Positions 1,339-14,978 are shown, counted from the first letter of the stretch. The stretch: 17,100 nucleotides of DNA from Candidatus Iainarchaeum sp. (GCA_038736825.1 JAVYME010000024.1:1-17100); one strand, 5' to 3'. Notes: generated by a model not told the origin, from the sequence alone. Program-made: numbers and translations.

Positions 1339-3101
1339 TGTTTCGCCTCCTTCTTTTTAGCGGAAGCCTCTTTTTTTCGGAGAGCTTCAAATTCTGCCTG
1401 GATTTGCTTCATCAGAGAAGCGATTTCTGTTTTGAATTTTTCGTTTTCAACAAATTTTAGCCTTGAAATCCTGTAAACTGATTCAAGATTGCTTATTTCT
1501 TCAGCGTCAGGGAATTCCAGTGACATTGCCTGTTCCCTGAAGAAAAGTATTGCGGAAATGATTCCAAGCTGTTTTTCGAGCGGGCAAAAAGTGTCAATTT
1601 CATGGTAAGCGTTTTGCTGCAAAAAGTCTTCTCTTACCATTCGCGCTATTTCAAGCGTCAAGCGCTCTTTTTGCGGCAAAGCATCAGGGCCGATTATTTG
1701 CACTATTTCAAGCAATTCTGCTTCTTTTTGCAATAATTCCATTGTGGTTTTTCTCGCTTTAGACCATTCCCTTGAAATGTTTTTGTCAGCCCATTTTCCT
1801 GTTTCTTCAGTGTAAAGCGAGTAAGAGGAAAGCCAGTTTATGGAGGGAAAATGCCTTCTTTCGCTTAAAGAGGCATCCAAAGCCCAAAAGACTTTGGTGA
1901 TGCGCAAAGTGTTTTGTGTCACTGGCTCTGAAAAGTCGCCGCCTGGAGGTGAAACCGCGCCGATTGCGCTTACAGAGCCAATTGTTTCATTCAAGGTTTT
2001 CACTCGCCCGGCTCTTTCATAGAATTCCGCAATTCTAGTGCCAAGGTATGCTGGATATCCTTCTTCGCCCGGCATTTCCTCCAAGCGAGATGAAACCTCT
2101 CTCAAGGCTTCAGCCCACCTTGAAGTGGAGTCAGCCATTAATGCGACATTGAATCCTTGATCGCGATAGTATTCTGCAATCGTGATGCCAGTGTAAACCG
2201 ATGCTTCCCTTGCAGCCACTGGCATGTTGGAAGTGTTTGCAATCAAAACGGTTCTTTTCATTAAAGGCTTGCCTGTTTTTGGATCCAAGAGTTTTGGAAA
2301 TTCTGTGAGCACGTCAGTCATTTCATTGCCTCTTTCACCGCAACCAACGTAAACAATTATGTCAGCATCAGCCCATTTTGCAAGGGCTTGCTGGAGGACA
2401 GTTTTGCCTGAACCAAACGGGCCTGGAATGCTTGCAGTGCCGCCTTTTGGCACTGGAAACAAAAAGTCTATTGTTCTCTGTCCTGTGACAAGCAGTTCAG
2501 AGGGTGAGAGTTTTTCAAGGTAGGGTCTTTGTTTTTTCACCGGCCATTCCTGCATGAGCTGGATTTTTTTTCCATTGATTTCGCAGATTGTTTCTTCAAC
2601 CGTGAAATCGCCTTCTTTTAAGCCTGAAATTTTTCCATGTATTGCGGGTGGCACTAGAATGTGGTGTAATATTGTTTCGGTTTCCCTTACAATGCCGATT
2701 TCTTGTCCGCCTTTCACTGTTTCCCCGTTTTTTGCTGTGGGCTTGAAGTGCCATTTCTTTTTTCTGTCCAGGGCTGGCGCTGAAACCCCTCTTGCAATAA
2801 AGTCTCCGCTTTGCTGTTTTATTATTTCAAGCGGTCTTTGAATGCCGTCATAAATGCTTCCAAGCAATCCGGGTCCCAGTTCAAGGCTTAAGGGGCTGCC
2901 GGTGAGTTCAACTGGTTCGCCTGGTTTTATGCCACTGGTTTCCTCGTAAACTTGAATGGTTGCCTTGTCTTTTTCCAAGCGAATTATTTCTCCAACCAGT
3001 TTTTCGTTTCCAATCCTTGCAACTTCGTTTATTTTGGCTCCCTGCAGGTTTTTTGCCTCTATTACTGGGCCTGAAATTTTGGTAATTATTGGTTTTTCCA
3101 T
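1335..3101 (-). CDS. atpA: A1AO ATP synthase catalytic subunit A
   Basis: 588-aa ORF with Walker [10 protein letters not shown]. Other typical stretches are [43 protein letters not shown] and [27 protein letters not shown] lies upstream of the ATG. It sits between atpF and atpB. Confidence 0.97.
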
Positions 3102-3115
3102 TGTTTTTTTCCTCC

Positions 3116-3454
3116 TCAGCTTGAACCTGAAGCTTTTTTTGTTATGTGTTCGGTTATTCCAATGCTTTTTTTTCCGGTTTTGTCCGGAATTTCTATTATT
3201 ATGGGGTTTTTGTTTGCTTCAATGAATAAAAAAATTTCTTTTTTTATTGGTGAACAGGAATTGTCAATTATGAGGATGCCTGTGCTTGGATCGGCTGTAA
3301 GGGTTTCAAACTGTCTTAATAGGGCTTGAGGGTTTTCCTCTGCAACAATTGTTTTTTTTATTCCGGCTAGCTTGAAGCCGGTAACCGTGTTTTTGCTGCC
3401 TAAAACTGTGATTTGCAGTTGTTGTCCTTCTTTTTTTTGCATTGAATCGCTCAT
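3116..3454 (-). CDS. atpF: A1AO ATP synthase subunit F
   Basis: 112-aa ORF in the canonical position between C and A. The pattern [19 protein letters not shown]...GILIID...IIEIP fits the small alpha/beta F subunit. Its start is 3 nt after the atpC stop. Confidence 0.85.
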
Positions 3455-3457
3455 TTT

Positions 3458-4603
3458 TCACACCGCTATTGCGATTTCCATTATTTGTTCTTTTGGCAGT
3501 CCAAGCCTTATGCCATTCAATATTGTTTTCAGGTTTAATATTTCTCTTTCTTTGAGGGCTAAATAGCAGGCAATCGGGGTTAAGCCAAAGGGCTGCCTTA
3601 AAGAGTAGGCATTGATTTCTTGAGCCCAAAATTCGTCCAATGCTTTTTCTGCTTGAAAGAGCGAGCCTTTCTCCAATTCTTTTGCTTTTTCTGAAAGTAT
3701 TGCGTGATAGGGAGTGCCTTCAAGCGCGCTTATTGCACTGTTGATGTCAACTGCTTCTGCAAGCGCTTCTGTTTTTTTTTCTTGAATGAAATAACCGTTT
3801 TTGAACAAAAGGGTTTTTGTTTTTTCAGTGCCAAGCTTGTCTTTGATGCAGCGCAAGACTATTTTTATTTTCAGTATGTCTGCTTGCATTCCATAAATTT
3901 TTCCCAGGTATTGCGAGTCCTGCATTATTCCAGCGTTTCTGGCGGTTTCATCTATTTTTGCTTTTCTTAAAATGCTTTCAAGCAAGTGCTTGTCCAAGGC
4001 TTGCTGTATTTCCCTTGGAGTCGGGTTTTGTGGCAATGATTCCACTGCTTCGCGATAGCTTGTGGCTTTCAGCAATTCAATGATTTCCTGCATGGAATTG
4101 GCTTCACTGAGTTTTTGCAAAAAGGCTTCAGAGAGAGGGCCTGGATAGAACTCTTGGATTGTTTGCTCTGTTTCTTTTGCGGCAATTATTGCTTTAATGT
4201 TTTCAACGTCGTATTTGGCGCTGACAATTTTGAAGAACTGGGTTGCTTTTCTCGGGCACATTCCAATTATTGCTTTGTAGTCGTGGGCTAAACTCAAGGC
4301 AAGCGATTTTTCTATTTCTTCAATTCCTGTTTTTCCTGCAATGAAGGTTTCATAGCCTGTGCCTTCAAAAGAGCCTATTACGTCCCTTAAATCCATTGAT
4401 TCCACTAGTTCCCTTATTTTTTCGCGTCCAAGCATTTTGCCTTTCATTACCCTTACTCTAGAGGAAGGGTAAGAGTATTGGGCTATTGGCATTGCCTTTA
4501 TTATTAAAAACATTAAGGCGAAACCGCCAGCAAGTATTGCTGCAAGCAAAATGCTGTCAACCAGCAATCCAATGCCGAAAAGCCCGGTTGCCATTTCATT
4601 CAC
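3458..4603 (-). CDS. atpC: A1AO ATP synthase subunit C (eukaryotic d-like) with an unusual hydrophobic N-terminal extension
   Basis: 381-aa ORF between atpE and atpF. The conserved subunit-C start YSYPSSRVRVMKGKML appears only at about residue 43. The start codon is ambiguous. One option is GTG at 4603, an 8-nt overlap with atpE. The other is ATG at 4594, 1 nt after the atpE stop with GGTGA upstream. An internal ATG at 4492 would give a canonical-length protein. Confidence 0.85.
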   Translation of the reverse strand: MNEMATGLFGIGLLVDSILLAAILAGGFALMFLIIKAMPIAQYSYPSSRVRVMKGKMLGREKIRELVESMDLRDVIGSFEGTGYETFIAGKTGIEEIEKSLALSLAHDYKAIIGMCPRKATQFFKIVSAKYDVENIKAIIAAKETEQTIQEFYPGPLSEAFLQKLSEANSMQEIIELLKATSYREAVESLPQNPTPREIQQALDKHLLESILRKAKIDETARNAGIMQDSQYLGKIYGMQADILKIKIVLRCIKDKLGTEKTKTLLFKNGYFIQEKKTEALAEAVDINSAISALEGTPYHAILSEKAKELEKGSLFQAEKALDEFWAQEINAYSLRQPFGLTPIACYLALKEREILNLKTILNGIRLGLPKEQIMEIAIAV

Positions 4604-5159
4604 CGATTTCCTTCAACAATTCTTTTTTCAGTTCTTGTTTTTTTTCTTCAAGCAATGCTGCAAAAGTGCAGTCAATTTTTATGCTTTCGTCAGCGCTTTT
4701 GATTATTGCGCCTGGGCTCATGTTTTTCACTGTTTCAATTTTTGCGCTTTTATTGTTTTTTTGCAAGAGTTTTGCGTCCTCTGGTGAAACTTGAATTGTG
4801 ATTGTTCCTGCTGGCATTTCTTTTATGGCCTCTGTCACCATTGAATTGAATTTTTTTGCAAAGTTTTTTTGTTTTCTCAGCAATTGAAGGGTTTTGGATG
4901 CATTGCTTATTATTTCTTCCAGTTTTTTGTCCAAAAGCAGTGCGATTTCTTTTTGGGCGTTTAGGTTTGCTCGCGCAATTTCTCTTTTTTTTGCGGTTTC
5001 TGCTTCGCTTTTGGCTTTTTCTCTTGCCATTGCAATGATTTCTTGCGCTTTTGCTTGTGCTTGGGATTTAATGCGCGCTGTTTCCCTTTCGCATTCGGTT
5101 TCTATGGCTTTCGCTCTCTTTTGCGCATCGCTTTTTATTTTTTCCATTATTCCTTGCAT
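4596..5159 (-). CDS. atpE: A1AO ATP synthase subunit E (peripheral stalk)
   Basis: 187-aa ORF. The N-terminal half is a charged coiled coil (KSDAQKRAKAIETECERETARIKSQAQAKAQEI...) followed by a globular C-terminus. It occupies the canonical position between K and C. Confidence 0.85.
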   Translation of the reverse strand: MQGIMEKIKSDAQKRAKAIETECERETARIKSQAQAKAQEIIAMAREKAKSEAETAKKREIARANLNAQKEIALLLDKKLEEIISNASKTLQLLRKQKNFAKKFNSMVTEAIKEMPAGTITIQVSPEDAKLLQKNNKSAKIETVKNMSPGAIIKSADESIKIDCTFAALLEEKKQELKKELLKEIGE

Positions 5160-5189
5160 TTTTTTGCCTTTTGTTTTTTTTTCTGGGTT

Positions 5190-5447
5190 TTAAAGGAATC
5201 CAGCGCCGGCTGCAACCACAAAGATTATCAGGATTGCAATCACAAGCCCGTATATTGCTTGGGTTTCAGGTATTGCGGTTAATACGAGCATTTTGCCAAA
5301 ACTGTAGTCTTTTTCTGCAACCCCTCCTGCTGCGGCTGCTGCTGCAATTCCTTGGCCTAAGCCTGAACCTGCTGCAGCTATTCCCACTGCAAGCCCTGCG
5401 CCTATCATCATTAAGCCCAAGGCGTTCATTGAAACTGGGTCAACCAT
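5190..5447 (-). CDS. atpK: A1AO ATP synthase proteolipid (c/K) subunit, single two-helix hairpin
   Basis: 85 aa with two hydrophobic helices rich in Gly and Ala (GAGLAVGIAAAGSGLGQGIAAAAAAGG). The ion-binding carboxylate lies in LTAIPETQAIYGLV. GGAGGTG is 8 nt upstream. There is an 8-nt overlap (ATGGTTGA) with the atpI stop. Confidence 0.9.
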   Translation of the reverse strand: MVDPVSMNALGLMMIGAGLAVGIAAAGSGLGQGIAAAAAAGGVAEKDYSFGKMLVLTAIPETQAIYGLVIAILIIFVVAAGAGFL

Positions 5448-7416
5448 TTTTTTGCACCTCCGTTTTTTTGGTTATTTTTCTTGGCACATGGAATGGCTTG
5501 AATTCTTTTCCATTGCCTGCGTAAAAGAATGAAAAGAATTCCACGAAATGCAGTCTTAAAGGGTGAATGAAAGAGCTTAAAATGTTGAAAACCAGGTTTG
5601 CTGTGTGCCCGAAAACCATTATTATTGCCCATAAAGCAAATCCAATGTATGGTATGTCAAAGAAAAGCTTGGCAATTATGTTGATGGACATTGCAACTGC
5701 AAAGGTTGCAAGGCTTAAAACCATTAGCCTTAAATAGGATAAAGTGTTGCCCATAAAACCGGTTATTTTCATTAACCCCAAGGGTCCGCCTGATAATAGC
5801 ATTAGGGCGAGCGAGGCAAGCAAGAGGCATAATCCTGCAAGGATTGCAATTTCTTGTCCTGGAAGGATTGTTCCAATTGCGTACAAGGCAATTCCGCCTT
5901 CAAGCAACAAGTAAACCATTTTGTCTTCAAGTGCTGCCTTGTAGTTTTTTTTCCTGAGTTCTTCTTTGAAGCCCAAAACTATTGCAAGGGTTAAGTGAAG
6001 CAATCCAACCAAAATCATTGCTCCAATGAAGAGCAATGCAATGCTTTGCCCTTCAAGGGTTTTGCCGAATGGATCCAGTAAAGCTATTTTTTTCATGCTT
6101 TCGCCGCCTAAATCGCCAAAAAAGCCGCCGAAAACCCAGCCGAAAAAGATTGTGGCAATTGAGCCGTGAACCAAAATGCTTGAAAGCTGTTTCCAGGAAT
6201 CGCTTTTTTTTCCAAGAAAGTGTTTTAAGAAAAGCGATATTGCAAGCAACACAAAACCGTAACCAATGTCAGAGAACGCTATTCCAAAAAAAACAGGATA
6301 GAGTATGGCAATAAAGAAGGTGGGGTCAATGGAGCCATATTCTGGCAATCCATACATTTTCACCAAAAACTCGTAGTTTTTAAAATAGCCCTTGTTTTCC
6401 AGCATTACTGGGGCTTCCTCTTCCTTGAATTGCATTTCTTCAATGTAATGCCTGCCTTTAGTGTTTTTTTCAATTTTTTCCCTGAACCTGTTTTCCAGTT
6501 TTTCTGGAACAAATGCTTCAAAGAAAACTGTTTTTTGAGTGCGAGCGAACATTTGAAAGGCTTTGCCCTTGGATTTCTCTATTTCAAGCAATTCTTGCAA
6601 GACTGAAACCCTTCCAGCGTGCTTTTTTTCCAGTTGTCGGCATTCCAAAACAATTGCCTTTTTTTCCTCTTCCAGCTGGCGCAATTCCTTTTCAGCCTTT
6701 CGTATAAGGTTTGCTGGCTTGCCAGAGCGCTCTGGCACTATCAGCCTGTCAAAGCCGATTTTTTTAAGGCTTTGCATTATGCTTTCTTGCGCTTCTGTTT
6801 CCACAGAGAACAAGACTGTTTTTTCTCCAACGCTTTCAGTTATCTTCAAAAGGGATGCTTGTTTTTGTTTTTTGAAGAAAGCCAGCAATTCGTCCTCAAA
6901 CTCTGGCGGGATTTTTCCAACAACAACCGAAATGCTTTTGTATCCTGCAAGGAGGTCCAATTCAATGCCGAGTTCTTGAATGCTTTCAAGTATTAGTTTT
7001 TCCTTTTGAATTGCTATGGAGCGCTCTTCTGCTTTTTTCAGTCTTGAATCCAGGGCTTCAATTTTGCTTGCAAGCCCGCCAAGGAATTCGTCAGCGCTTT
7101 TCTTGAACGAATTGAAGTCAGCGGGAGCTTTTTCCTTTAAAGGCTCTCTTGTTGAAAGGAATTCTTTTATTTTTTCTTTCAAGGATTGCGGTTCAGAGTG
7201 CGCTTTAAAAAAACCTAAAATCCTTTTCGCGCGCGTTAACTGGAATGAGGCAAAGCGCTCCCTTTCATTAAAATCAAAAGCGTTGAGGTTTTTTCCTTCA
7301 ATGTCAACGCGCTTGAATTCAACCAGTTCTTCTTCGTGAAAGTCATCCAGCACTTTTTGAGTGTCCTCTTCAAGCAATATTACTGAAAACTTTTTCATTT
7401 TAGCCGGCTTAAGCAT
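5440..7416 (-). CDS. atpI: A1AO ATP synthase subunit I (stator a-subunit)
   Basis: The N-terminal half is soluble and coiled-coil rich. The C-terminal half has multiple transmembrane helices and ends ...HPLRLHFVEFFSFFY. I chose the ATG at 7416 (MLKPAKMKKFSV..., the usual M-L/F-K/R-P-x-K/R-M start). It has GGAGG 8 nt upstream and overlaps the atpH stop by 8 nt. The ORF-track start at 7479 would add 21 atypical residues. Confidence 0.9.
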   Translation of the reverse strand: MLKPAKMKKFSVILLEEDTQKVLDDFHEEELVEFKRVDIEGKNLNAFDFNERERFASFQLTRAKRILGFFKAHSEPQSLKEKIKEFLSTREPLKEKAPADFNSFKKSADEFLGGLASKIEALDSRLKKAEERSIAIQKEKLILESIQELGIELDLLAGYKSISVVVGKIPPEFEDELLAFFKKQKQASLLKITESVGEKTVLFSVETEAQESIMQSLKKIGFDRLIVPERSGKPANLIRKAEKELRQLEEEKKAIVLECRQLEKKHAGRVSVLQELLEIEKSKGKAFQMFARTQKTVFFEAFVPEKLENRFREKIEKNTKGRHYIEEMQFKEEEAPVMLENKGYFKNYEFLVKMYGLPEYGSIDPTFFIAILYPVFFGIAFSDIGYGFVLLAISLFLKHFLGKKSDSWKQLSSILVHGSIATIFFGWVFGGFFGDLGGESMKKIALLDPFGKTLEGQSIALLFIGAMILVGLLHLTLAIVLGFKEELRKKNYKAALEDKMVYLLLEGGIALYAIGTILPGQEIAILAGLCLLLASLALMLLSGGPLGLMKITGFMGNTLSYLRLMVLSLATFAVAMSINIIAKLFFDIPYIGFALWAIIMVFGHTANLVFNILSSFIHPLRLHFVEFFSFFYAGNGKEFKPFHVPRKITKKTEVQKNG

Positions 7417-7717
7417 CCAAAAGCCTCCGCAAAACAATTGCTTGCAGTTCACTGCTTTTTTCTGAAATTTTTCTTTCAAGCGCTTCCATTTTTTTGCGTG
7501 AAACCCTTTCTATTTCTTTTGCCTTTTCCTGTCCTTCAAGCCGGCCTTTTTCAATTATTTCGTTTCTTTCCTTTTCAGCTTGCAATAAAGCGTTTTTTAT
7601 GGTTTCTTGGGCTTCAAGCTCTGCCTTTCTGGTTAAATCCTCTTTTCGTTTTTCGGCTTTTTCAATCAAAGCATTGCTTTCCTGCTCCAATTGCCTTATT
7701 TCCTTTAAAACCTGCAT
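7409..7717 (-). CDS. atpH: A1AO ATP synthase subunit H (peripheral stalk coiled-coil protein)
   Basis: First gene of the operon. It encodes a 102-aa, entirely charged helical protein (MQVLKEIRQLEQESNALIEKAEKRKEDLTRKAELEAQ...). I chose the ATG at 7717 rather than the ORF-track start at 7798, which adds an F/K-rich read-through of the promoter region. The call rests on position, size and composition. Confidence 0.7.
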   Translation of the reverse strand: MQVLKEIRQLEQESNALIEKAEKRKEDLTRKAELEAQETIKNALLQAEKERNEIIEKGRLEGQEKAKEIERVSRKKMEALERKISEKSSELQAIVLRRLLDA

Positions 7718-7824
7718 TTTTTTCCCTTTTTTTGTTTTTACTGAAAAAAAAAACTTGAAGGCGAATATATTTCCTTTCCACCAAACCTTTAAAAGCATTT
7801 TTTAAAGGATTTGTGGATTAAAGA
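7718..7824. promoter_or_regulatory. Divergent intergenic promoter region between the atp operon and argS
   Basis: 107 bp, very AT-rich. On the minus strand, TATA-like AAATATAT (complement of about 7764-7771) follows purine-rich GGAAAGG and lies about 50 nt upstream of the atpH ATG. On the plus strand, TTTTTTAAAGG (7798-7808) lies about 20-25 nt upstream of the argS ATG. No experimental support. Confidence 0.35.
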
Positions 7825-9540
7825 ATGCTTATGGAGTTAAGGAAAGGCATAGCTGGGGCTTTTTCTGTTGCAGCAAGCGTGCCCTTGGAAAAGGCTTTGG
7901 CTTTGATTGAACGCCCTCCAGACAAAAAATTCGGAGATTTTTCCATTCCAGTGTTTTCTTTGTGCTCTAAAAGCGAAAACCCAGCAAAAAAAGCACTGGA
8001 AATAAGGCAAAAAATGAAAACCCCGGAAGGAATTTCAAAAATAGAAGTTGTTGGACCTTACATTAATTTTTTCCTGGATGAATCAGTATTTTTTGCTTCA
8101 GTAATGGAGTCAATTCTTTTATTGCAAGAGAATTTCGGGAAAAGCGATAAAGGCAAGGGCAAAAATGTCATGGTGGAATATTCTGCACCCAACACCAACA
8201 AGCCATTGCATATAGGGCATTTGAGGAACGACTGCATTGGCATGAGCGTTAGCGCTTTGTTTGAGGCAGCTGGGTGGAGGGTAATTAGGGCAAACCTTGT
8301 GAATGACCGCGGAATCCACATTTGCCAGGCAATGGTTGCCTACCAAAAATTCGGTGAAGGCAAAACCCCGCAATCCGCGAAAACCAAGGGCGACAAGTTT
8401 GTGGGCGATTTTTATGTGCAATTCAATCAAAAAGCAAAGGAAAACCCTGAATTGCAAGAGGAAGCCAGGGTTTTGCTTCAAAAATGGGAGTCTGGAGACA
8501 AACAAACAAGGGCTTTATGGAAAAAAATGCGCGAATGGGTGCTTTCAGGATTCAATGCAACCTATAAAAAGTTCGGTTCAACCTTTGAAGAAACCTTTTT
8601 TGAATCCGATTTTTACGACAAAGCAAAACCATTAATAGAATTGGGCTTGAAAAAAGGGGTTTTTGAAAAAACACCAGAGGGAGCCATAATTGCCAGGCTG
8701 GAAAAACACGGCTTGCCTGACAAAACCGTTCTCAGGGCTGACGGAACAAGCATTTACATTTCAAACGATTTGGCTTTGACAAAATTCAAGCAAGAAAAAT
8801 TCAATTTGCACAAAAACATTTTTTGCGTTGCAAGCGAGCAAGACCTTTATTTCAGGCAATTGTTCAAAATACTGGAATTGCTTGGGTTTGCTTGGGCTAA
8901 AAACTGCGAGCACTTGAGTTATGGCTTGGTGTTTTTGCCGGAAGGCAAAATGAAAAGCCGTGAAGGAAAAGTGATAGATGCAGACGACCTAATAGCAAAA
9001 ATTGAAGGCATTGCATTAAAAGAAGTTGAAAAAAGGTATCCCAAACTAAAGGAAAAGGAAAAGAAAAAAAGGGCTGAAACCATAGCCCTGGCGGCAATAA
9101 AGTTTGCAATGCTCAAAATAGACCACAAAAAAGATTTCACTTTTTTGCCAGAACAATCCTTGAGCTTTGAAGGCGAATCAGGGCCATACCTGTTATACTC
9201 TTATGCAAGGGCTAAAAGCGTTTTAAGAAAGGCTGAATGGAAAGGCACTGGCAAAACAAAAACAGATTTTTCCAAGCTTTCAAGCGAAAAAGAAAAAGCA
9301 ATTTTGAAAACCCTTGCGGTTTTCCCAGAAACAATTGAAAAAGCCTTGAATGAAAGAAACCCGAGCCTTTTATGCCATTTCCTTTTATCACTGGCAGAAC
9401 AATTCAATGCCTATTACCATGAAACAAAAATAATAGGTTCAACAGAGGAAAAGGAACGGCTTGCGCTCACAAAAGCAGTTTCCATTGTCTTAAAATCAGG
9501 CCTTTCGCTTTTAAACATTTCTGTTTTGGAGGAAATGTGA
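7825..9540 (+). CDS. argS: Arginyl-tRNA synthetase
   Basis: 571-aa ORF with the class I HIGH motif (EYSAPNTNKPLHIGHLRN). It also has the ArgRS-type second signature region GKMKSREGKVI and a C-terminal anticodon-binding style helical domain (GPYLLYSYARAKSVLRKA). Confidence 0.95.
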   Translation: MLMELRKGIAGAFSVAASVPLEKALALIERPPDKKFGDFSIPVFSLCSKSENPAKKALEIRQKMKTPEGISKIEVVGPYINFFLDESVFFASVMESILLLQENFGKSDKGKGKNVMVEYSAPNTNKPLHIGHLRNDCIGMSVSALFEAAGWRVIRANLVNDRGIHICQAMVAYQKFGEGKTPQSAKTKGDKFVGDFYVQFNQKAKENPELQEEARVLLQKWESGDKQTRALWKKMREWVLSGFNATYKKFGSTFEETFFESDFYDKAKPLIELGLKKGVFEKTPEGAIIARLEKHGLPDKTVLRADGTSIYISNDLALTKFKQEKFNLHKNIFCVASEQDLYFRQLFKILELLGFAWAKNCEHLSYGLVFLPEGKMKSREGKVIDADDLIAKIEGIALKEVEKRYPKLKEKEKKKRAETIALAAIKFAMLKIDHKKDFTFLPEQSLSFEGESGPYLLYSYARAKSVLRKAEWKGTGKTKTDFSKLSSEKEKAILKTLAVFPETIEKALNERNPSLLCHFLLSLAEQFNAYYHETKIIGSTEEKERLALTKAVSIVLKSGLSLLNISVLEEM

Positions 9541-11405
9541 TGAAAATCAAAATTGCAAAGCCAAGCATTAAACTGCCGCCCTTGCGGTTTCCAGTGCCAG
9601 CGCCAAAGCAGAAAACCCAAAAACCAAAAAAGAAAAAAAACGATTCCGAGTTCTCCAAAGAAAAAAAAGAATTGCTGGAAAGCATGAAGCGAAGCTCTGG
9701 CAGGGCTGACACAAAACTTGTGGGAAAAGCCCTTTCCTTTATTGCAAGCCTTCCACGCATTCCACGAGAAAGAGGGGAACGAATTTTGGTTGAAAAGGCC
9801 TTTTTGTTCTCAGAGCAAAAGCATGGAATGCAGAAAAGGCTTTCAGGCGACCCATATTTTTCGCACTCCTTTCAAACAGCACTAATTCTTTCAGAATACG
9901 GTTTGGACAGCAACACCATAGCGGCAGCCCTATTGCACGATGTTTTAGAGGACACAGAGGCAAGCGATGAAGAAATAGGAAATGCCTTTGGCGGAGAAGT
10001 CCTCAAACTAGTGAAAGGCGTAACCAAACTAAAACAAAAAGAAAAAGCAAAAGGGGAAAGCGAGCAAGAGGAAAAAGCCTATTTGAAAAGCGTTCTGGCA
10101 GCCTCTGCAGAAGACCCAAGGGTTTTACTGATAAAGCTTGCTGACAAAATCCACAACCTGCGCACCATAGAATTCATGCCTGAAAAACGAAAAAAAGAAA
10201 TCTGCGAAACCGCACTGGAAGTCTATGCTCCGCTCGCTGAAAGGTTTGGCTTGAACAAAATGAAGGAAGAAATCCAAGACAGATGCCTTGCAGTTTTGCA
10301 CCCCCAAGAATTTGAATCGCTTTCAGCTGAAATAAGCAAGCGCCGCAACATAAAAGAAGAAGAAATCAATGAAGCAATCAAAGTGCTTTCCGGAATGCAA
10401 GTGCAAGGCAGGAAAAAATTTTTCCAAAAATACTCTTGGCGGAAAATGAGCAAAAACGTTTACTATTACTATGAAAAAACCACTAAAAACAAAAAAAGCC
10501 TGGACGAATTATACGATTTTGTCTCCCTGGTTGTTTTATGCAACACCATAGGAGAATGCTATGAAGCCCTCAAAACAATCCACACAGCCTTTTACCCGAT
10601 TCCAGGAAAACTAAAAGACTTGATTGCAACACCACACTACATGACATACCAGTCAATTTGCACTTCAGTGATTGGACCGAAAGGCTTTCCAGTGAAAATC
10701 TTCATTAGAACCAAAGAAATGGACGAACTTGCAGAAAAAGGAATCGCTGTCTGGCTAAAAGAAAAATTCAAGCCAAAAGATGAAGAAAAAGAACTCGAAT
10801 CACTGGCAGAAATGGCAAAAAAACCCTGCGAACCAAAAGAATTCTTTTCAACCCTAAAAACAGACTTTTTAGGGGAACAAATAAGCGTTTTCAGTGAAAA
10901 CGGTTCCAAATACAGCATTCCAAAAGGCTCAACAGCCCTCGATTTTGCCTTCAAACAAAACCCTGGAAAAGCCCTTTACGCTTTAAGCGCAGAAATAAAT
11001 GGAAAACAAAGACCATTATGGCATGAATTAAAAAGCGGGGACAGAGTGGTTTTCTCTTTTTCGCAAGCAAAAACTGTTTCAAGGGACTGGGCTGGTTTTG
11101 CAAAAACCTTTGGAGCAAGAGAATGCATTTTAAAAGAACTCAACCTTTACTCAAACAACACCCTATCAGGAAAAACCCCTTTGGCTGGCTATTCGTTTTC
11201 AGCAAAGCCAAGAAAAGGCTTATTGAAAGAAATCTTTTTGGTTTTAGGAGAAAACGCTTCAGTTTCAAGTTTTACCGTTAAAAAGGTTGCACCGCACAGG
11301 GTTGAAGGCTCGCTTTTCCTTGAACTCAAAAAAAACACTTCAATTGAAAAAATTGAAAAAAAGCTTGGCAAAATCAAGGGTTTAAGCGAAATAAACAGGA
11401 TTTAA
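9540..11405 (+). CDS. Long RelA/SpoT homologue (RSH): HD hydrolase domain, degenerate synthetase-like domain, TGS domain and ACT-like C-terminus
   Basis: HD motifs: HGMQKRLSGDPYFSHS, AALLHDVLEDT, LLIKLADKIHNLRT and EVYAPLAERFGL. Synthetase-like region: GRKKFFQKYSWRKM...DLIATPHYMTYQSICTSVIGPKGFPVKIFIRTKEMDELAEKGIA. TGS-like region: ISVFSENGSKYSIPKGSTALDFAF...INGKQRPLWHELKSGDRVVF. GGAGG lies 7 nt before the ATG at 9540, which overlaps the argS stop (TGATG). GTG at 9537 and ATG at 9684 are alternative starts. Confidence 0.85.
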   Translation: MKIKIAKPSIKLPPLRFPVPAPKQKTQKPKKKKNDSEFSKEKKELLESMKRSSGRADTKLVGKALSFIASLPRIPRERGERILVEKAFLFSEQKHGMQKRLSGDPYFSHSFQTALILSEYGLDSNTIAAALLHDVLEDTEASDEEIGNAFGGEVLKLVKGVTKLKQKEKAKGESEQEEKAYLKSVLAASAEDPRVLLIKLADKIHNLRTIEFMPEKRKKEICETALEVYAPLAERFGLNKMKEEIQDRCLAVLHPQEFESLSAEISKRRNIKEEEINEAIKVLSGMQVQGRKKFFQKYSWRKMSKNVYYYYEKTTKNKKSLDELYDFVSLVVLCNTIGECYEALKTIHTAFYPIPGKLKDLIATPHYMTYQSICTSVIGPKGFPVKIFIRTKEMDELAEKGIAVWLKEKFKPKDEEKELESLAEMAKKPCEPKEFFSTLKTDFLGEQISVFSENGSKYSIPKGSTALDFAFKQNPGKALYALSAEINGKQRPLWHELKSGDRVVFSFSQAKTVSRDWAGFAKTFGARECILKELNLYSNNTLSGKTPLAGYSFSAKPRKGLLKEIFLVLGENASVSSFTVKKVAPHRVEGSLFLELKKNTSIEKIEKKLGKIKGLSEINRI

Positions 11406-11430: not shown

Positions 11431-14304
11431 TTATTCCAAGAAAATGGCTGGTTTCAAGGGAAGCGCTGAAGAGGCTTTCTGCTTGAAATCATTCCCTGCC
11501 TTTTCCTCTTCAAGGATTTCAATTTTACACTCAAGCGCTCTTTCCATGAAATCCTTTCCTCCTTCCAGAACCTCCAGTTCGCAAATTTTTTGCACTTCCT
11601 TTAACTCCATTGCCTTTCCAGCAAGCCTTTTAATGACGGTTTCAGCCTCTTTTCCCTTGGATTTCACTTCAGGGCACTTCATTGCCTCTTTCATTGCAAG
11701 CCCGAAATCAGGCCTGTCAATTTTTTTCACTGCTTCAAGGGCAATCCATTTCCATGGGGCTGCCGTGAAAAAAATTGCCTTTTTTATCCTGGTTTTGCCT
11801 GTTATTTTCATGATGTTTTTTGCGTCTTCAATGCAAGTGGAAAGCAAGGTTTCGCTTAAGTCAACTATTTGGCTTGTTTGCATTTTTTCCGGGAGTTTTG
11901 ATTTAAAGATTGATTCCTTGTGTTTTAGCGAGTTTCTCCAGATTTCTTCGGCGATGTGGGGCATGAAGGGGGCTATGCATTTCAGCCAAACCTCTGTTAT
12001 GTATAAGTTAAGGCTTTTGTTTTCTTTTTGTTTTCTTGTTTCAAACCAGAGCAAGTCTTTTGCGAACTTGAAAGTGATTTCCTGCACTGCAGAGCGCAGC
12101 ATGGCGCTTTCCATTGCTTCAAGGAAGGCATTCACCCTTTTCCTGAAAGCATTCAAAAACCATTTTTCCGCTTGGTCTAAAACAGCTTCATCTAGTTCGC
12201 CGCTTTCAGCGGACTCCAAAGCGCTCTCTTGCACCCATTCAACCAAATCATTCAGTTTTTCAACCCCCTTGTCTATTTCCCTTTGCTTCCAATCCATTTC
12301 CTCCCAAGGCTCAACAGAATTCATTAAAAACAAGCGCACATAATCAGTGCCAATTTTTTCACACATATCGTTTATCAAAATTACATTGCCCTTCGAGGAA
12401 GACATTTTTTTGCCCTCCAATACAAGCATTCCAAGATTAAGAGTGCCCTTTTGCCTTTTGTCAGGCGGAAAGATTGCAGTGTGCTGGAATATGGAAAAAG
12501 ACATGTGGTTTGGAATGAGCTCTGTAGCGCTAACATTGAACGCCAAGGGATACCAGTAATCAAACTCTTTCCCCATTTCCTCCAAGTCTTTTCTGTCCAA
12601 ACCACTTTCCCTTGCAATTTCCTCCACTTTGCCTTTTCCAAGGAACACAAAGTCAAAAACCTGCTCGGAAAGCCTTTCAGGCGGCAATTTTTTTATAATG
12701 TGTGAAATCGTAAAATACGCCATGTAAATAGTTGAATCAGCCAATGGCTCCAATATCTTGTCCTGCTGCCAGGGAAACCTTGTCCCCAAGCCCTTTGAGC
12801 GAGTGCAAGGCTTGTCATCAAGCCAACTGAAAACATTATCGTATTGAGTGCGAAAAACCTCTGGCACAATCTTCATTTTTTCAAGCGTTTTCCTGCTCTC
12901 CTCCTTCCATTCAGGATCAGAATATGTAACAAACCACTGGTCCTCCAAAACACGCACAACACATTCAGCTCCGCACCTGCAAACCACTCTGCCCTCCAAT
13001 TCATAAAATTTTTCAGCCTGCCCTTTTTCAATCAATTCCTTTTTCACCAACTCTTTTGCCTTGCTCACCGGCATTCCAGCATACTTTCCACAGTTTTGAT
13101 TCATTTCACCCTTGTGGAACCCTATCCTGTAAACAATTTTTTTCGCTTCCTCCAGTTTTGCCTCATCCTTTTGGCTTTGAATTCCCAAGTCTTTAACGAT
13201 TTTTGCCGCAGACTCCTCGCCAAACTCAGCGGTTTTAATTATGGGAATGGTTTTCAAGGCAAGCACTTCGCTTTCATTCAAGCCATACCTTTCAATCATT
13301 GCAGCATCCTTTTGCAAATCCAGTAAAGCCACCAAATCAATTGGAGCATCGCTTGGCACAGAAGTGACAATCCCAGTGCCAGTTTTCGGATCACAAAAAG
13401 AGCAAGGCAAAACAAGCACTTTCCTTTCAATGCCTGGCGCCAAAGCCTTCTTTCCAACCAAAACAGCACCACTTATTTTGCCCTTCTCGATTACCCCGCT
13501 CTTTTGCTCTTTCAGTTTTTCAACAAACTCCTTGCTGCCAATCCATTCCTCCCCATCAACTCCAGCAATAAAATATTCAATTTCAGGGTTAACCCACAAA
13601 TTGGTTTGCCCGAAAACAGTTTCAGGCCTCAAGGTTGCAGCAACAATAAATCTGCCATCATCCATTTTAAACTTTAAAATCGTGAACTCCTGTATGCCCA
13701 AGCCCTCGCCTTCAGCCAAATCATGGTCTCCAACAGGATTATTGTCTTTCGGGCAATACCTTACAGGATATTTTCCCTTCTTGATATAGCCTTTATTGTA
13801 AAGCTTTTTGTACTGCCATTCAATGAACTTCTTATAAGTTGGATCAATGGTTTTTAGCTCCCTTCTCCAGTCAATTCCCAATCCAAGCTTTTTAAAACCA
13901 GCCTTATAACCATATTTTGCCTTGTTCACCATGTAATCCACAAAACTCTCAGGGCTTTCTGTAAGATATTTCAAGTCTTCTTTTGGAATCCTAGAGCTTT
14001 CAGTGAAAACTTTCAACACTTTTTCATTGCCTTTCTGCAACGCCTCAACAGCAGCAATAACCGGAGTTCCAGAAACATGCCAGCCCATTGGCATCAAAAC
14101 ATTATAACCTTTGAGCATGTGATATTTTGCCATTATATCCGTGACAGTGTAAGTGCGCGCATGCCCGATATGCATTGCCCCGCTCGGATAAGGATAAGCA
14201 ACTTGAATATAAAAAGAGGGCTTTTTTGAATCCACTTTCGGCTCAAAAAGGCCTTCCTTTGCCCAGGCATCCTGCCATTTTTTCTCAATTTGTGCAAAAT
14301 CCAT
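11431..14304 (-). CDS. leuS: Leucyl-tRNA synthetase (archaeal/eukaryotic type)
   Basis: 957-aa ORF with HIGH (AYPYPSGAMHIGHARTY) and KMSKS (GKKMSSSKGN) motifs. The CP1 editing-domain signature TLRPETVFGQTNLWVNP is present. Length and C-terminal extension fit the archaeal form. Confidence 0.97.
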   Translation of the reverse strand: MDFAQIEKKWQDAWAKEGLFEPKVDSKKPSFYIQVAYPYPSGAMHIGHARTYTVTDIMAKYHMLKGYNVLMPMGWHVSGTPVIAAVEALQKGNEKVLKVFTESSRIPKEDLKYLTESPESFVDYMVNKAKYGYKAGFKKLGLGIDWRRELKTIDPTYKKFIEWQYKKLYNKGYIKKGKYPVRYCPKDNNPVGDHDLAEGEGLGIQEFTILKFKMDDGRFIVAATLRPETVFGQTNLWVNPEIEYFIAGVDGEEWIGSKEFVEKLKEQKSGVIEKGKISGAVLVGKKALAPGIERKVLVLPCSFCDPKTGTGIVTSVPSDAPIDLVALLDLQKDAAMIERYGLNESEVLALKTIPIIKTAEFGEESAAKIVKDLGIQSQKDEAKLEEAKKIVYRIGFHKGEMNQNCGKYAGMPVSKAKELVKKELIEKGQAEKFYELEGRVVCRCGAECVVRVLEDQWFVTYSDPEWKEESRKTLEKMKIVPEVFRTQYDNVFSWLDDKPCTRSKGLGTRFPWQQDKILEPLADSTIYMAYFTISHIIKKLPPERLSEQVFDFVFLGKGKVEEIARESGLDRKDLEEMGKEFDYWYPLAFNVSATELIPNHMSFSIFQHTAIFPPDKRQKGTLNLGMLVLEGKKMSSSKGNVILINDMCEKIGTDYVRLFLMNSVEPWEEMDWKQREIDKGVEKLNDLVEWVQESALESAESGELDEAVLDQAEKWFLNAFRKRVNAFLEAMESAMLRSAVQEITFKFAKDLLWFETRKQKENKSLNLYITEVWLKCIAPFMPHIAEEIWRNSLKHKESIFKSKLPEKMQTSQIVDLSETLLSTCIEDAKNIMKITGKTRIKKAIFFTAAPWKWIALEAVKKIDRPDFGLAMKEAMKCPEVKSKGKEAETVIKRLAGKAMELKEVQKICELEVLEGGKDFMERALECKIEILEEEKAGNDFKQKASSALPLKPAIFLE

Positions 14305-14357: not shown

Positions 14358-14978
14358 TCAGCCAATCGCCCTCAAAATGAATTCCCTGTATGGAAGCGCT
14401 CCATAAACTATTTCCCTTCCAGCAAAGTGCGCTATCACCTGCTTTTTTGGAAAACCCATTTTCACTGCAAGCTTTGCACTCAAAACATCTGCAAGCAATT
14501 CCTCTGCCTGTTCGAGTGAAATGCGGTGTGCTAAAGCAAATTCCCTTAGTTTTGGTTTTGGAAAGTGCGCGTATTCATGGCATAAAGTGAGAATGCCGTC
14601 CAAAGACATTTTTTCTCCCTTGAATATGTGTTCAACTGGAAGGTTTATGTAACTCTTTCTTTCAATTCTGCGCATTCCGCCAATTTGGATTATCCTGTAA
14701 AAGGAAACGTTTTCGCCTTGAGTGACAAAAAAAGGGTTTGCACGCATTACTTTTCTAGGGTAAAAATATATTGGCGTGTTCGCCAAATTCAATTCCATTA
14801 ATTCAAACAATTCGCTTTCAATGCCGCTTTTCGCCTCTTTTTTCAATTCTTTCAAGGAATTCGCAGCATGCCTCATAAAGGCATCCAATGCCTTTTTTCT
14901 GGCTCCACTCAACACAGGGCTTTCAGGGAATTGCATGAAAAAAAGAACAACCGAAATCCTTATTAAGCGGGATTTCAT
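14358..14978 (-). CDS. Hypothetical protein with a single HExxH motif (possible zinc metallopeptidase-like fold)
   Basis: The ORF-track frame 14358..15116 actually starts on TTG and overlaps the divergent gene. The first plausible ATGs are at 14978 (MKSRLIRISVVLFF...) and 14936 (MQFPESP...). The only recognisable motif is LTLCHEYAHFPKP. I recognise no family. The start is uncertain. Confidence 0.55.
   Translation of the reverse strand: MKSRLIRISVVLFFMQFPESPVLSGARKKALDAFMRHAANSLKELKKEAKSGIESELFELMELNLANTPIYFYPRKVMRANPFFVTQGENVSFYRIIQIGGMRRIERKSYINLPVEHIFKGEKMSLDGILTLCHEYAHFPKPKLREFALAHRISLEQAEELLADVLSAKLAVKMGFPKKQVIAHFAGREIVYGALPYREFILRAIG

What the first reader, a model, noticed from the sequence alone, without database searches (positions are those of the whole stretch)
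9540..11405. Long RelA/SpoT homologue in an archaeal housekeeping context, with an intact HD hydrolase but an apparently dead synthetase
Multidomain long RSH enzymes (HD, synthetase, TGS, ACT) are typical of bacteria and plastids. To my knowledge they are rare in archaea, which generally lack (p)ppGpp signalling. This gene sits between archaeal-type argS and leuS next to an archaeal ATP synthase operon, and it uses the same SD and gene-coupling style. It therefore looks like an integrated acquisition.

Hydrolase motifs are preserved: H..Q.R.SG.PY..H, HD, ED and KLADK.HN.RT. I compared the synthetase region with the E. coli SpoT and RelSeq motifs as I recall them.
- GYQSLHT is YQSICT here.
- The catalytic E.QIRT is VKIFIRT (Glu to Lys, Gln to Phe).
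- The D..A.R strand is DFVSLV.
- AAHW.YK is AVWLKEK.

This predicts a hydrolase-only enzyme, or one with a new function, that keeps the TGS domain that in bacterial RSHs contacts the deacylated tRNA CCA end.
Basis: partly seen in the sequence, partly recalled or inferred. Interest (0 to 1): 0.65.

Follow-up and report, generated by a model that had tools for sequence, protein, structure and literature searches.

The report
Archaeal hydrolase-only RelA/SpoT homologue
This gene encodes an archaeal relative of the bacterial stress-alarmone enzymes RelA/SpoT that keeps a perfect breakdown (hydrolase) site but has a conserved, catalytically dead synthesis domain. It belongs to a sizeable family in Diapherotrites (Iainarchaeota) archaea that is almost always fused in an operon with the arginyl-tRNA synthetase gene.

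Summary
ORF 9540-11405 (+) is a 621-aa long RSH with HD, RelA_SpoT and TGS domains by Pfam and an ACT/RRM fold by AlphaFold2. It is translationally coupled to archaeal argS, convergent with archaeal leuS, and next to an A-type ATP synthase operon.

- **Catalytic sites.** All hydrolase residues are intact. The synthetase site is dead: G240K, R241M, R269V, E324K, Q326F (B. subtilis Rel numbering), in gapless alignments to four solved active Rels.
- **Family.** About 41 clusters at 50% identity form one clade (NJ bootstrap 30/30). Named members are Diapherotrites or unclassified archaea. Hydrolase residues are invariant, the pseudo-synthetase is nearly as conserved as the HD domain, and Lys replaces the catalytic Glu in 21/23.
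- **Other losses.** The family lost the TGS histidine that reads the tRNA CCA end and the AH/RIS (helical/zinc-finger) domains. This parallels the hydrolase-only SpoT of Acinetobacter.
- **Synteny.** argS lies directly upstream in 10 of 12 independent loci.

RelA/SpoT in Diapherotrites was already reported (Li 2021), so its rarity was overstated. The dead synthetase, lost His and argS pairing were not found described. The substrate, and whether these genomes hold any synthetase, remain untested.

The parts
7825..9540 (+). argS (arginyl-tRNA synthetase, 571 aa), upstream partner in the conserved gene pair
   Evidence: Pfam Arg_tRNA_synt_N, tRNA-synt_1d and DALR_1. TIGR00456, 488 bits. argS lies directly upstream of the RSH in 10 of 12 independent loci.
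9528..9532 (+). GGAGG Shine-Dalgarno-like motif inside the end of argS, 7 nt before the RSH ATG
   Evidence: Sequence read. Equivalent GGAGG/GAGGAG motifs occur at the junctions in L001, L004 and L007.
9540..11405 (+). Long RSH gene (621 aa), type [Hs]: active-looking hydrolase, dead synthetase. Its ATG overlaps the argS stop TGA by 1 nt.
9540..9641 (+). N-terminal basic, proline-rich tail (residues 1-34: 12 K/R, 0 D/E, 7 P), predicted disordered
   Evidence: pLDDT about 40 for residues 1-30. Composition. Similar K/R/P-rich tails occur in P0004, P0014, P0015 and P0018.
9765..10391 (+). HD (3'-pyrophosphohydrolase) domain, residues 76-284
   Evidence: Pfam HD_4, 135 bits. AF2 helices with pLDDT 85-96. 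The N-terminal catalytic half superposes on S. aureus Rel with pppGpp (7oiw_A, TM 0.92, rmsd 2.0 A).
9936..9953 (+). Codons for H133-D134-V-L-E137-D138, the HD and ED catalytic motifs
   Evidence: Codons checked. Invariant in 23 of 23 family members, as are R100, S102, Y106, H109, K199, D202, H205, N206 and T209.
10419..10769 (+). Pseudo-synthetase (SYNTH-fold) domain, residues 294-410
   Evidence: Pfam RelA_SpoT, 72 bits. Alignments to active Rels are gapless. Mean column conservation in the family is 0.62, against 0.66 for HD.
10695..10703 (+). Codons K386-I387-F388, which replace the catalytic Glu-x-Gln (B. subtilis Rel E324 and Q326)
   Evidence: The Glu position is K in 21 of 23 and the Gln position is Y or F in 17 of 23 family members.
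10776..10868 (+). Two-helix linker between SYNTH and TGS (residues 413-443), positionally equivalent to the 'Core' of SpoT
   Evidence: AF2 helices 413-427 and 432-443, pLDDT about 75-83. The analogy to the SpoT_Ab Core (PMC9974481) is inference.
10878..11060 (+). TGS domain, residues 447-507
   Evidence: Pfam TGS, 30.3 bits against a cut-off of 22.2. AF2 beta strands, pLDDT about 90.
10959..10961 (+). Codon N474, at the position of the tRNA-CCA-recognising His (B. subtilis Rel H420)
   Evidence: Register. The His is absent in all 25 family members and present in all 36 canonical RSHs aligned. Its role and its loss in SpoT_Ab are stated in PMC9974481.
11181..11399 (+). C-terminal ACT/RRM-like domain, residues 548-620
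   Evidence: AF2 beta-alpha-beta-beta-alpha-beta fold, pLDDT 81-87. Pfam ACT_4 is significant in homologues P0003 (32 bits) and P0015 (38 bits) at the same position. It is not detected by Pfam in this protein.
11431..14304 (-). Archaeal-type leuS (957 aa), convergent with the RSH gene
   Evidence: TIGR00395 leuS_arch, 974 bits. A convergent leuS or alaS follows the RSH in 9 loci.
1..7798 (-). A-type ATP synthase operon (B partial, A, F, C, E, K, I and a 129-aa H-like ORF), divergent from argS. Context only.
   Evidence: The same arrangement occurs in L001, L002, L007 and L092.

Best explanation
The gene encodes a monofunctional long RSH of type [Hs]. It is a Mn2+-dependent HD-domain hydrolase that removes the 3'-pyrophosphate from (p)ppGpp-type nucleotides.

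**Domains.** The hydrolase is fused to a synthetase-fold domain that can no longer catalyse pyrophosphate transfer but is kept under selection. After that come a helical linker, a TGS domain that has lost its tRNA-CCA-reading histidine, and an ACT/RRM domain.

**Proposed mechanism.** By analogy with the hydrolase-only SpoT of Acinetobacter baumannii, the non-catalytic domains most likely act as an intramolecular scaffold or allosteric switch for the HD site. A small ligand may be sensed through the ACT domain, or through the remaining guanine-nucleotide-binding residues of the pseudo-synthetase. They probably do not act as a ribosome or tRNA sensor.

**History.** The gene is ancient and vertically inherited within Diapherotrites/Iainarchaeota. 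It presumably derives from one old transfer of a bacterial Rel, and is co-transcribed and translationally coupled with argS.

**Shown.** Domain content, residue states, family-wide conservation, monophyly and synteny.

**Inferred.** Loss of synthetase activity, retention of hydrolase activity, the scaffold role of SYNTH and TGS, and the identity of the substrate.
For: **Hydrolase site.** All catalytic and substrate residues are present and invariant in 23 of 23 family members. In B. subtilis Rel numbering these are R44, S46, Y50, H53, H77, D78, E81, D82, T83, K141, D144, H147, N148 and T151.

**Synthetase site.**
- G240K, R241M, H244N, R269V, E324K and Q326F are seen in gapless alignments to four solved active enzymes.
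- The same losses occur throughout the family. The E324 position is K in 21 of 23 and the Q326 position is Y or F in 17 of 23. G240, R241 and R269 are substituted at the family level: no member has G240 or R269, and a single sequence has Arg at the R241 position.
- The domain is conserved (0.62, against 0.66 for HD) rather than decaying.
- D264, K243, K251, the RxKD-equivalent KxKD, Y308 and IRT are kept.

**TGS and C-terminal domains.**
- The TGS CCA-His is lost in 25 of 25 family members and present in 36 of 36 canonical RSHs.
- AH/RIS (PF19296) is absent. The gap from TGS to ACT is about 43 aa, against about 194 aa in a bacterial Rel.
- Some members lack ACT (P0032 in L004, where leuS abuts the gene) or part of TGS (P0002, P0028).

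**Structure.** The AF2 model has pLDDT 81 and pTM 0.71. Foldseek best hits are RelA, Rel and full-length SpoT_Ab. The N-terminal catalytic half reaches TM 0.92 to S. aureus Rel with pppGpp.

**Precedent.** SpoT_Ab is an experimentally shown hydrolase-only long RSH. It has a pseudo-SYNTH, has lost the TGS His, and its C-terminal region activates hydrolysis allosterically (PMC9974481; PMC12742793).

**Family and inheritance.**
- 41 of the best 150 representatives at 50% identity share the signature and form one split (30/30 NJ bootstrap; 100/100 in the smaller tree).
- Identity to the window is 40-56% for the RSH, 53-70% for ArgRS, 56-71% for LeuRS and 42-51% for AtpI.
- Source names are 'Candidatus Diapherotrites archaeon', 'Candidatus Iainarchaeum archaeon' or 'archaeon'.

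**Coupling.** argS lies directly upstream in 10 of 12 independent loci whose outer flanks differ.
Against: - No biochemical data exist for any member.
- I could not test whether these genomes encode any alarmone synthetase. The natural substrate is therefore open. A hydrolase with no endogenous substrate would be odd.
- The conserved Lys at the former catalytic Glu, and the conserved aromatic at the Gln position, could mean the domain gained a function I cannot see, rather than being a passive scaffold.
- The AF2 interdomain arrangement does not superpose well on the SpoT_Ab tau state (global TM about 0.45), and this family lacks the HEL and ZFD domains that form part of that state. The SpoT_Ab mechanism can therefore apply only in part.
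Confidence: 0.7

Rival explanations
1. The HD domain is active, but its physiological substrate is not an alarmone. Candidates are NADPH or PAPS/pAp-type 3'-phosphorylated nucleotides, as for metazoan MESH1, or the 3'-pyrophosphorylated CCA end of tRNA made by toxic RSH-type enzymes. On this reading the argS operon reflects a role in keeping tRNA or nucleotide pools usable for translation.
For: [quoted passage not shown]
- No synthetase-competent domain lies in this gene or in the about 8 kb flanks of 12 loci.
- The HD part of the model matches MESH1-NADPH and MESH1-PAPS structures (5vxa and 9chy, TM about 0.76).
- There is a tight, conserved association with argS and other aaRS genes.
- The basic N-terminal tail could bind RNA.
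- From memory, not checked here: small alarmone hydrolases can remove the pyrophosphate that toxSAS enzymes put on tRNA (Kurata et al. 2021).
Against: - The HD pocket residues are those of (p)ppGpp hydrolases and are invariant.
- The closest structural match of the catalytic half is Rel bound to pppGpp, not MESH1.
- The TGS His that reads the CCA end is lost, which argues against specific tRNA handling.
- Whole genomes were not scanned, so an endogenous synthetase cannot be excluded.
Confidence: 0.18
2. The synthetase-fold domain is still catalytic. It would use a non-canonical mechanism or a different donor and acceptor, with the conserved Lys386 and aromatic 388 forming a new active site. 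The enzyme would then be bifunctional, as NCBI names some members.
For: - The domain is almost as conserved as the HD domain.
- D264, K243, K251, KxKD, Y308 and IRT are retained, and K386 is conserved in 21 of 23.
- Some database entries call members 'bifunctional (p)ppGpp synthetase/hydrolase'. These are automatic names.
Against: - The Mg2+-coordinating Glu is replaced by a cationic Lys.
- The Gly-Arg of the ATP-phosphate loop, R269 and Q326 are all lost family-wide.
- From established knowledge of RelSeq and B. subtilis Rel (from memory), substitutions at the E323/E324 and D264 positions abolish synthesis.
- The same pattern of loss in Moraxellaceae SpoT goes with an experimentally shown lack of synthesis.
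- In the P0008/P0010/P0011 lineage K386 and D326 both vary, which fits a structural salt bridge better than a catalytic pair.
Confidence: 0.05
3. The gene is a bacterial contaminant, a chimeric assembly, or a recent one-off transfer now decaying into a pseudogene.
For: RSH enzymes are overwhelmingly bacterial, and the nearest relatives outside the family are bacterial Rels at 33-40% identity.
Against: - The ORF is intact.
- GC content is the same as its neighbours.
- The start overlaps the stop of argS.
- The same arrangement with archaeal leuS, A-ATPase or RNase P Rpp14 occurs on about 11 independent contigs from different samples.
- Catalytic hydrolase residues are invariant across sequences only 40% identical.
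Confidence: 0.01

Closest known systems
SpoT[Hs] of Moraxellaceae (Acinetobacter baumannii SpoT, PDB 7QPR; Tamman et al. 2022, PMC9974481)
   Same: - It is a long RSH with an intact HD hydrolase.
- It has a retained but non-catalytic pseudo-synthetase domain and a folded linker before TGS.
- It has lost the TGS histidine that recognises the tRNA CCA end.
- It has a C-terminal RRM/ACT domain.
- Both are predicted or shown to be hydrolase-only.
   Different: - The loss is independent. The archaeal family is a separate clade from the sampled proteobacterial (beta- and gammaproteobacterial) long RSHs; SpoT_Ab itself was not in the tree.
- Sequence similarity to SpoT_Ab is weaker than to Rel (6e-44 against 2e-89).
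- The archaeal family lacks the HEL and ZFD (AH/RIS) domains that are part of the SpoT_Ab tau state.
- It has a basic disordered N-terminal tail.
- It has a specific, conserved Lys at the catalytic Glu position.
- In Acinetobacter a partner RelA supplies the substrate. No partner synthetase is known here.
Bifunctional Rel[HS] (B. subtilis Rel 6YXA, S. aureus Rel 7OIW, RelSeq 1VJ7)
   Same: - These are the best sequence and structure matches: 2e-89 to 6yxa, and TM 0.92 for the N-terminal catalytic half to 7oiw.
- The order of HD, SYNTH, TGS and ACT domains is the same.
   Different: - The synthetase catalytic residues, the TGS His and the AH/RIS domains are lost.
- TIGR00691 scores 401.5, below its 499.2 cut-off.
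Second archaeal long-RSH family in Nanoarchaeia/Woesearchaeota-type DPANN genomes (L074, L082, P0274-P0363)
   Same: - They are found in DPANN archaeal MAGs.
- They are shortened long RSHs (about 630-645 aa) without PF19296.
- They share the HD-SYNTH-TGS-ACT architecture.
   Different: - They keep every synthetase motif and the TGS His.
- They form their own clade (100/100).
- They are about 55% identical to Rels of thermophilic Firmicutes such as Thermosediminibacter, Caldanaerovirga and Thermovenabulum. They therefore look like a separate, more recent acquisition.
Small alarmone hydrolases / MESH1
   Same: They have the HD fold and catalytic motifs and are hydrolase-only. They also occur in organisms where the source of (p)ppGpp is unclear.
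   Different: They are single-domain proteins of about 180 aa. The present protein keeps the SYNTH-fold, TGS and ACT domains.

Membership tests
RSH superfamily, long RSH class | N-terminal HD (hydrolase-fold) domain followed by a RelA_SpoT (synthetase-fold) domain | tested here: met
   PF13328 scores 135 bits and PF04607 scores 72 bits, both far above their cut-offs. Foldseek TM is 0.92 to the S. aureus Rel catalytic half.
RSH superfamily, long RSH class | C-terminal regulatory region with TGS and ACT/RRM domains | tested here: met
   TGS scores 30.3 bits against a cut-off of 22.2. ACT/RRM is seen as a beta-alpha-beta-beta-alpha-beta fold in AF2, and ACT_4 is significant in homologues.
RSH superfamily, long RSH class | Helical (AH/HEL) and zinc-finger (RIS/ZFD) domains between TGS and ACT | tested here: not met
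   PF19296 is absent in the query and in all family members, but present in bacterial P0055. Only about 40 residues separate TGS and ACT.
NCBIfam TIGR00691 spoT_relA (RelA/SpoT family protein) | Score at or above the curated cut-off (499.2 bits) | tested here: not met
   The score is 401.5 bits, and the match covers profile positions 1-451 of 687.
Bifunctional Rel / (p)ppGpp synthetase | Synthetase catalytic set: G240-R241-x-K243-H244 loop, D264, R269, Y308, H312, E324, Q326 (B. subtilis Rel numbering) | tested here: not met
   The query has K, M, K, N, D, V, Y, C, K and F at these positions. The losses of G240, R241, R269, E324 and Q326 are family-wide.
(p)ppGpp hydrolase (HD-active RSH) | Metal and substrate residues R44, Y50, H53, H77-D78, E81-D82, D144, N148, T151 | tested here: met
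   All are present in the query and invariant in 23 of 23 family members. Enzymatic activity itself cannot be tested with these tools.
Ribosome/tRNA-sensing stringent factor (Rel/RelA mode of regulation) | TGS histidine that recognises the 3' CCA of deacylated tRNA (BsRel H420 / EcRelA H432) | tested here: not met
   The query has N474. The His is absent in 25 of 25 family members and present in 36 of 36 canonical RSHs. Its role is described in PMC9974481.
Moraxellaceae SpoT[Hs] | Phylogenetic membership in the proteobacterial SpoT lineage | tested here: not met
   The family is a separate clade from the sampled beta- and gammaproteobacterial long RSHs (SpoT_Ab itself was not in the tree). It works like SpoT[Hs] but is not a member.
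Small alarmone hydrolase (SAH/MESH1) | Single HD domain, about 180-200 aa | tested here: not met
   The protein is 621 aa with four folded domains.

The most novel reading that the evidence does not exclude
Iainarchaeota encode no alarmone synthetase at all. This conserved argS-coupled hydrolase would then act on something other than self-made (p)ppGpp. It might clear 3'-pyrophosphorylated or 3'-phosphorylated nucleotides, or pyrophosphorylated tRNA 3' ends, that come from neighbouring bacteria, from toxins or from salvage. The dead synthetase domain, with its conserved Lys, and the ACT domain would serve as a ligand sensor, for example of arginine or another amino acid, that links hydrolysis to aminoacylation capacity. 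This would be an archaeal RSH pathway without a stringent response.
Probability: 0.2. Interest if true: 0.8.

Novelty: new variant of a known kind. Interest (0 to 1): 0.55.

Why it matters
- **Textbook view.** Long RSH enzymes are treated as a bacterial and plastid hallmark, and archaea as lacking (p)ppGpp signalling.
- **What is new here.** A whole archaeal lineage has kept for a long time a long RSH whose synthetase is dead and whose hydrolase is perfectly preserved. The gene is locked in an operon with arginyl-tRNA synthetase.
- **Parallel evolution.** This is a second, independent case of the route taken by Moraxellaceae SpoT: pseudo-synthetase plus loss of the tRNA-reading His. That supports the idea that the synthetase fold and TGS are retained as allosteric scaffolds for hydrolysis.
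- **A testable question.** What does an alarmone hydrolase degrade in an organism not known to make alarmones?
- **Annotation.** Public names such as 'bifunctional (p)ppGpp synthetase/hydrolase' for family members are probably wrong. Counts of 'RelA/SpoT' in DPANN genomes mix two unrelated families with different predicted activities.

Tried and rejected
- **Alignment shift.** Rejected. Four independent phmmer alignments of the synthetase core are gapless.
- **One-off decay.** Rejected. The substitutions are family-wide and the domain is conserved.
- **Contamination or chimera.** Rejected by synteny on about 11 contigs.
- **Donor lineage.** NJ trees put the family on a long branch outside all sampled bacterial phyla, so the donor is unresolved. 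No ML phylogeny program (FastTree, IQ-TREE or similar) is among the installed tools, and none was run.
- **Genome-contig scan.** It returned only one family member (Iainarchaeum SKW289) plus bacterial Rels, so it cannot be used for prevalence.
- **Small alarmone synthetase in these genomes.** Only about 8 kb flanks are readable. The supplements of Li et al. 2021 held here contain no KO table.
- **RNA features.** tRNA and Rfam scans of the window found nothing.
- **Literature.** Searches for DPANN or Diapherotrites with ppGpp, alarmone or RelA/SpoT found only the presence/absence statement of Li et al. 2021. None described the dead synthetase, the lost His or the argS pairing. The library lacks most subscription-journal papers, for example Youssef et al. 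2015.
- **Tau-state fold.** A global superposition of the AF2 model on the SpoT_Ab tau state is poor (TM about 0.45). I do not claim the same quaternary arrangement.

Full report
**1. Observation**

The window holds an intact ORF at 9540-11405 (+), with an alternative in-frame GTG at 9537. Homologues start MKIKI, MELKI or MKIRI, so the ATG at 9540 is the start.

Pfam finds HD_4 (residues 87-238, 1.8e-39), RelA_SpoT (305-406, 5.5e-20) and TGS (449-503, 4e-7). NCBIfam TIGR00691 (spoT_relA) scores 401.5 bits. That is below its 499.2 cut-off, and the match stops at profile position 451 of 687.

- argS at 7825-9540.
- Archaeal-type leuS at 11431-14304 on the minus strand (TIGR00395, 974 bits).
- An A-type ATP synthase operon at 1-7798 on the minus strand.

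The argS stop TGA (9538-9540) overlaps the RSH ATG (9540-9542), and GGAGG sits at 9528-9532. GC content is uniform across the region.

**2. Catalytic sites**

phmmer against solved structures gives B. subtilis Rel (6yxa) at 2e-89. A search with the synthetase core alone gives gapless alignments to S. aureus, B. subtilis and M. tuberculosis Rel and to 8fr8.

In B. subtilis Rel numbering, counted from the alignment, the synthetase positions read as follows:
- Lost: G240 to K302, R241 to M303, H244 to N306, R269 to V331, H312 to C374, E324 to K386, Q326 to F388. The AAHW motif is also lost.
- Kept: K243, K251, D264 (D326), K297, D298 and Y308. R295 becomes Lys (K357), a conservative change that gives KxKD for RxKD.

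The hydrolase residues are all present: R100, S102, Y106, H109, H133-D134, E137-D138, K199, D202, H205, N206 and T209.

The residue roles come from established knowledge of RelSeq and Rel, recalled from Hogg et al. 2004 and later work and not re-derived here. Those roles are Mg2+ binding by D264 and E323/324, ATP phosphates by the Gly-Arg-x-Lys loop, and guanine stacking by Y308.

**3. It is a family, not an accident**

The closest database relatives (72% down to 38% identity) all carry the same pattern.

In a 23-sequence alignment (A1), I read out the key columns:
- The hydrolase residues are invariant in 23 of 23.
- The position of the catalytic Glu is Lys in 21 of 23.
- The Gln position is Tyr or Phe in 17 of 23.
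- No member has Gly at the G240 position or Arg at the R269 position, and only one of the 23 has Arg at the R241 position.

Mean column conservation is 0.66 for HD, 0.62 for the synthetase fold, 0.59 for TGS and 0.40 for ACT. The dead domain is therefore under selection.

The only lineage that lost Lys386 (P0008, P0010, P0011) also varies at Asp326. This hints that the Lys pairs with the former Mg2+-binding Asp. It is one evolutionary event, so the evidence is weak.

A profile search of 1.84 billion representatives found 56,680 RSH hits. Among the best 150 representatives:
- 110 have the full canonical signature.
- About 41 are short (460-640 aa) and have the dead signature with an intact HD motif.
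- Those 41 form one split in an NJ tree (30/30 bootstraps).
- A smaller tree with named bacterial phyla gave 100/100.

**4. TGS and C-terminal region**

Tamman et al. (PMC9974481) state that the His recognising the tRNA 3' CCA end in Rel and RelA is lost in the hydrolase-only SpoT of A. baumannii. In that enzyme TGS serves as a scaffold for the HD site.

In my alignment that His (B. subtilis H420) is present in all 34 bacterial Rels and in the two other DPANN RSHs. It is replaced in all 25 members of this family. The family motif is DFAFKxxP against the canonical DFAYxxH[TS]xxG, and the residue here is N474.

PF19296 (RelA/SpoT AH and RIS domains) is found in a bacterial Rel but in no family member.

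The AlphaFold2 model (pLDDT 81, pTM 0.71) shows these elements:
- A disordered basic tail (1-30) and an extra helix (35-53).
- HD (76-284) and the SYNTH fold (294-410).
- Two linker helices (413-443) and TGS (447-507).
- Two short helices, then a beta-alpha-beta-beta-alpha-beta ACT/RRM fold (548-620).

Foldseek puts RelA, B. subtilis Rel and full-length SpoT_Ab on top. The catalytic half superposes on S. aureus Rel with pppGpp at TM 0.92 and rmsd 2.0 A.

Some members have lost ACT altogether (P0032, where leuS abuts the gene in L004). Others have lost part or all of TGS (P0002, P0028). This fits accessory regulatory roles.

**5. Context and inheritance**

I fetched contigs for 11 relatives.
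- argS is the immediate upstream gene on the same strand in the window, L001, L002/L003, L004, L006, L007, L089, L090, L091 and L092. That is 10 of 12 independent loci.
- L008 has one gene inserted between the pair.
- L005 lacks argS but has leuS, aspS and archaeal RNase P Rpp14 nearby.
- The outer flanks differ between loci: the A-ATPase operon, argF-argG-argH, an ABC transporter, or small unknown ORFs.
- The downstream convergent gene is leuS in seven loci and alaS in two, and is a glycosyltransferase in L006.

Only the argS-RSH pair is constant.

Junctions are overlapping or 0-6 nt apart in five loci. Identity to the window's proteins is 53-70% for ArgRS, 56-71% for LeuRS, 42-51% for AtpI and 40-56% for the RSH. 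The RSH diverges in step with housekeeping genes.

Source names are 'Candidatus Diapherotrites archaeon', 'Candidatus Iainarchaeum archaeon' or 'archaeon'. The gene is therefore ancient and vertically inherited in this lineage. Contamination or chimerism is excluded.

**6. What is known**

- Atkinson et al. 2011 (PMC3153485) listed archaea as lacking long RSHs.
- Li et al. [quoted passage not shown] They predicted an acquisition from Bacteria.
- I found no paper describing the dead synthetase, the lost His or the argS pairing. The library is incomplete.

The closest functional analogue is SpoT[Hs] of Moraxellaceae. The archaeal family works like it on paper. It is not a member of that lineage, and it lacks the HEL and ZFD domains.

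**7. A second archaeal family**

RSH genes on Nanoarchaeia and Woesearchaeota MAG contigs (L074, L082) keep every synthetase motif and the TGS His. They form their own clade.

They have about 90 close relatives of 630-645 aa. Those that carry an organism name are labelled Nanoarchaeia or 'archaeon'. Next come Rels of Thermosediminibacter, Caldanaerovirga and Thermovenabulum at about 55% identity.

The published DPANN 'RelA/SpoT' counts therefore mix two families with different predicted activities.

**8. Interpretation**

The best explanation is a hydrolase-only long RSH whose dead synthetase fold, linker, TGS and ACT domains act as scaffold or allosteric elements for the HD site. It is co-expressed with ArgRS.

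I put about 0.85 on 'no synthetase activity, hydrolase active'. I put about 0.7 on the fuller statement that the substrate is an alarmone-type nucleotide.

The main open point is the source of the substrate. I could not scan whole genomes for a small alarmone synthetase.

The most novel reading still allowed is a hydrolase acting on non-self or non-alarmone 3'-(pyro)phosphorylated substrates, with ligand sensing tied to aminoacylation. I give it a probability of about 0.2.

**9. Verdict**

- The finding is a new variant of a known kind: an independent, archaeal, domain-reduced [Hs] long RSH family with a conserved argS operon.
- It is of moderate to good interest and is directly testable.

Noticed in passing
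window 15004-16853 (+): Four tandem small ORFs (131, 203, 144 and 164 aa). The first three start with a hydrophobic helix after a short polar leader (for example MKSKGMEMPIQIFIILFVLLAVAMLVL); in the fourth (16359-16853) the hydrophobic segment lies about 60 residues in, after a long polar leader. All have several Cys. They look like archaeal type IV pilin-like (class III signal peptide) proteins. Pfam gave no significant family for any of the four: two had no hit at all, and the other two (scanned) had none or only weak hits below the cut-offs.
   Followed up: partly
window 14358-15116 (-): A 252-aa ORF downstream of leuS has no Pfam or NCBIfam hit but contains an HExxH-type motif (CHEYAHF). 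ORFs of about 200 aa with no Pfam family occupy the same position in L002 and L007.
   Followed up: no
L074 5833-7830; L082 1746-3083; P0274-P0363: A second, separate archaeal long-RSH family occurs in Nanoarchaeia/Woesearchaeota-type MAGs. It has intact synthetase motifs, an intact TGS His, and an acidic EFDD/EFND motif in place of RFKD. Members are about 630-645 aa. The nearest bacterial relatives are Rels of thermophilic Firmicutes at about 55% identity.
   Followed up: partly
L001 1-1527 and L007 1-1475 (AtpA genes): The A-ATPase catalytic subunit A carries an intein with a LAGLIDADG endonuclease in two related contigs (products of 1103 and 1092 aa). It does not in the window, where AtpA is 588 aa.
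   Followed up: no
L004 2505-5369 and 9514-12378: The Iainarchaeum SKW289 contig carries two full-length LeuRS-like class I synthetase genes (954 aa each) flanking the argS-RSH pair, together with aspS and alaS. This is an aaRS-rich neighbourhood.
   Followed up: no
L089 8798-15791; L006 2516-7798; L090 12057-14546: aaRS genes sit next to biosynthetic or catabolic genes for their cognate amino acid. leuS is followed by leuD-leuC-leuB-leuA. argF-argG-argH precede argS. argF and arginase lie near argS-RSH.
   Followed up: no
window 7789-7812: A near-palindromic, A/T-rich element (CCTTTAAAAGCATTTTTTAAAGG) with TATA-box-like halves lies in the divergent intergenic region between the ATP synthase operon and argS. 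It is possibly a bidirectional archaeal promoter.
   Followed up: no
window 9540-9641; P0004, P0014, P0015, P0018 N-termini: The RSH family carries lysine/arginine/proline-rich N-terminal tails of variable length. In P0004 the tail has repeated 'KP(R/H)I(K/P)' units. The following helix (LVGKALSF) resembles the first HD helix (LVEKAFLF), which suggests a small duplication.
   Followed up: partly
P0017, P0121, P0128, P0268 (database names): Several family members are named 'bifunctional (p)ppGpp synthetase/guanosine-3',5'-bis(diphosphate) 3'-pyrophosphohydrolase' in NCBI or UniRef, although they lack the synthetase catalytic residues. This is probably over-annotation.
   Followed up: yes
P0002, P0028, P0022/P0023/P0031/P0032: The C-terminal region varies within the family. 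The closest relative, P0002 (72% identity), lacks the second half of TGS. P0028 lacks TGS. Four proteins end right after TGS with no ACT. For P0032 this is confirmed by the abutting leuS gene.
   Followed up: partly
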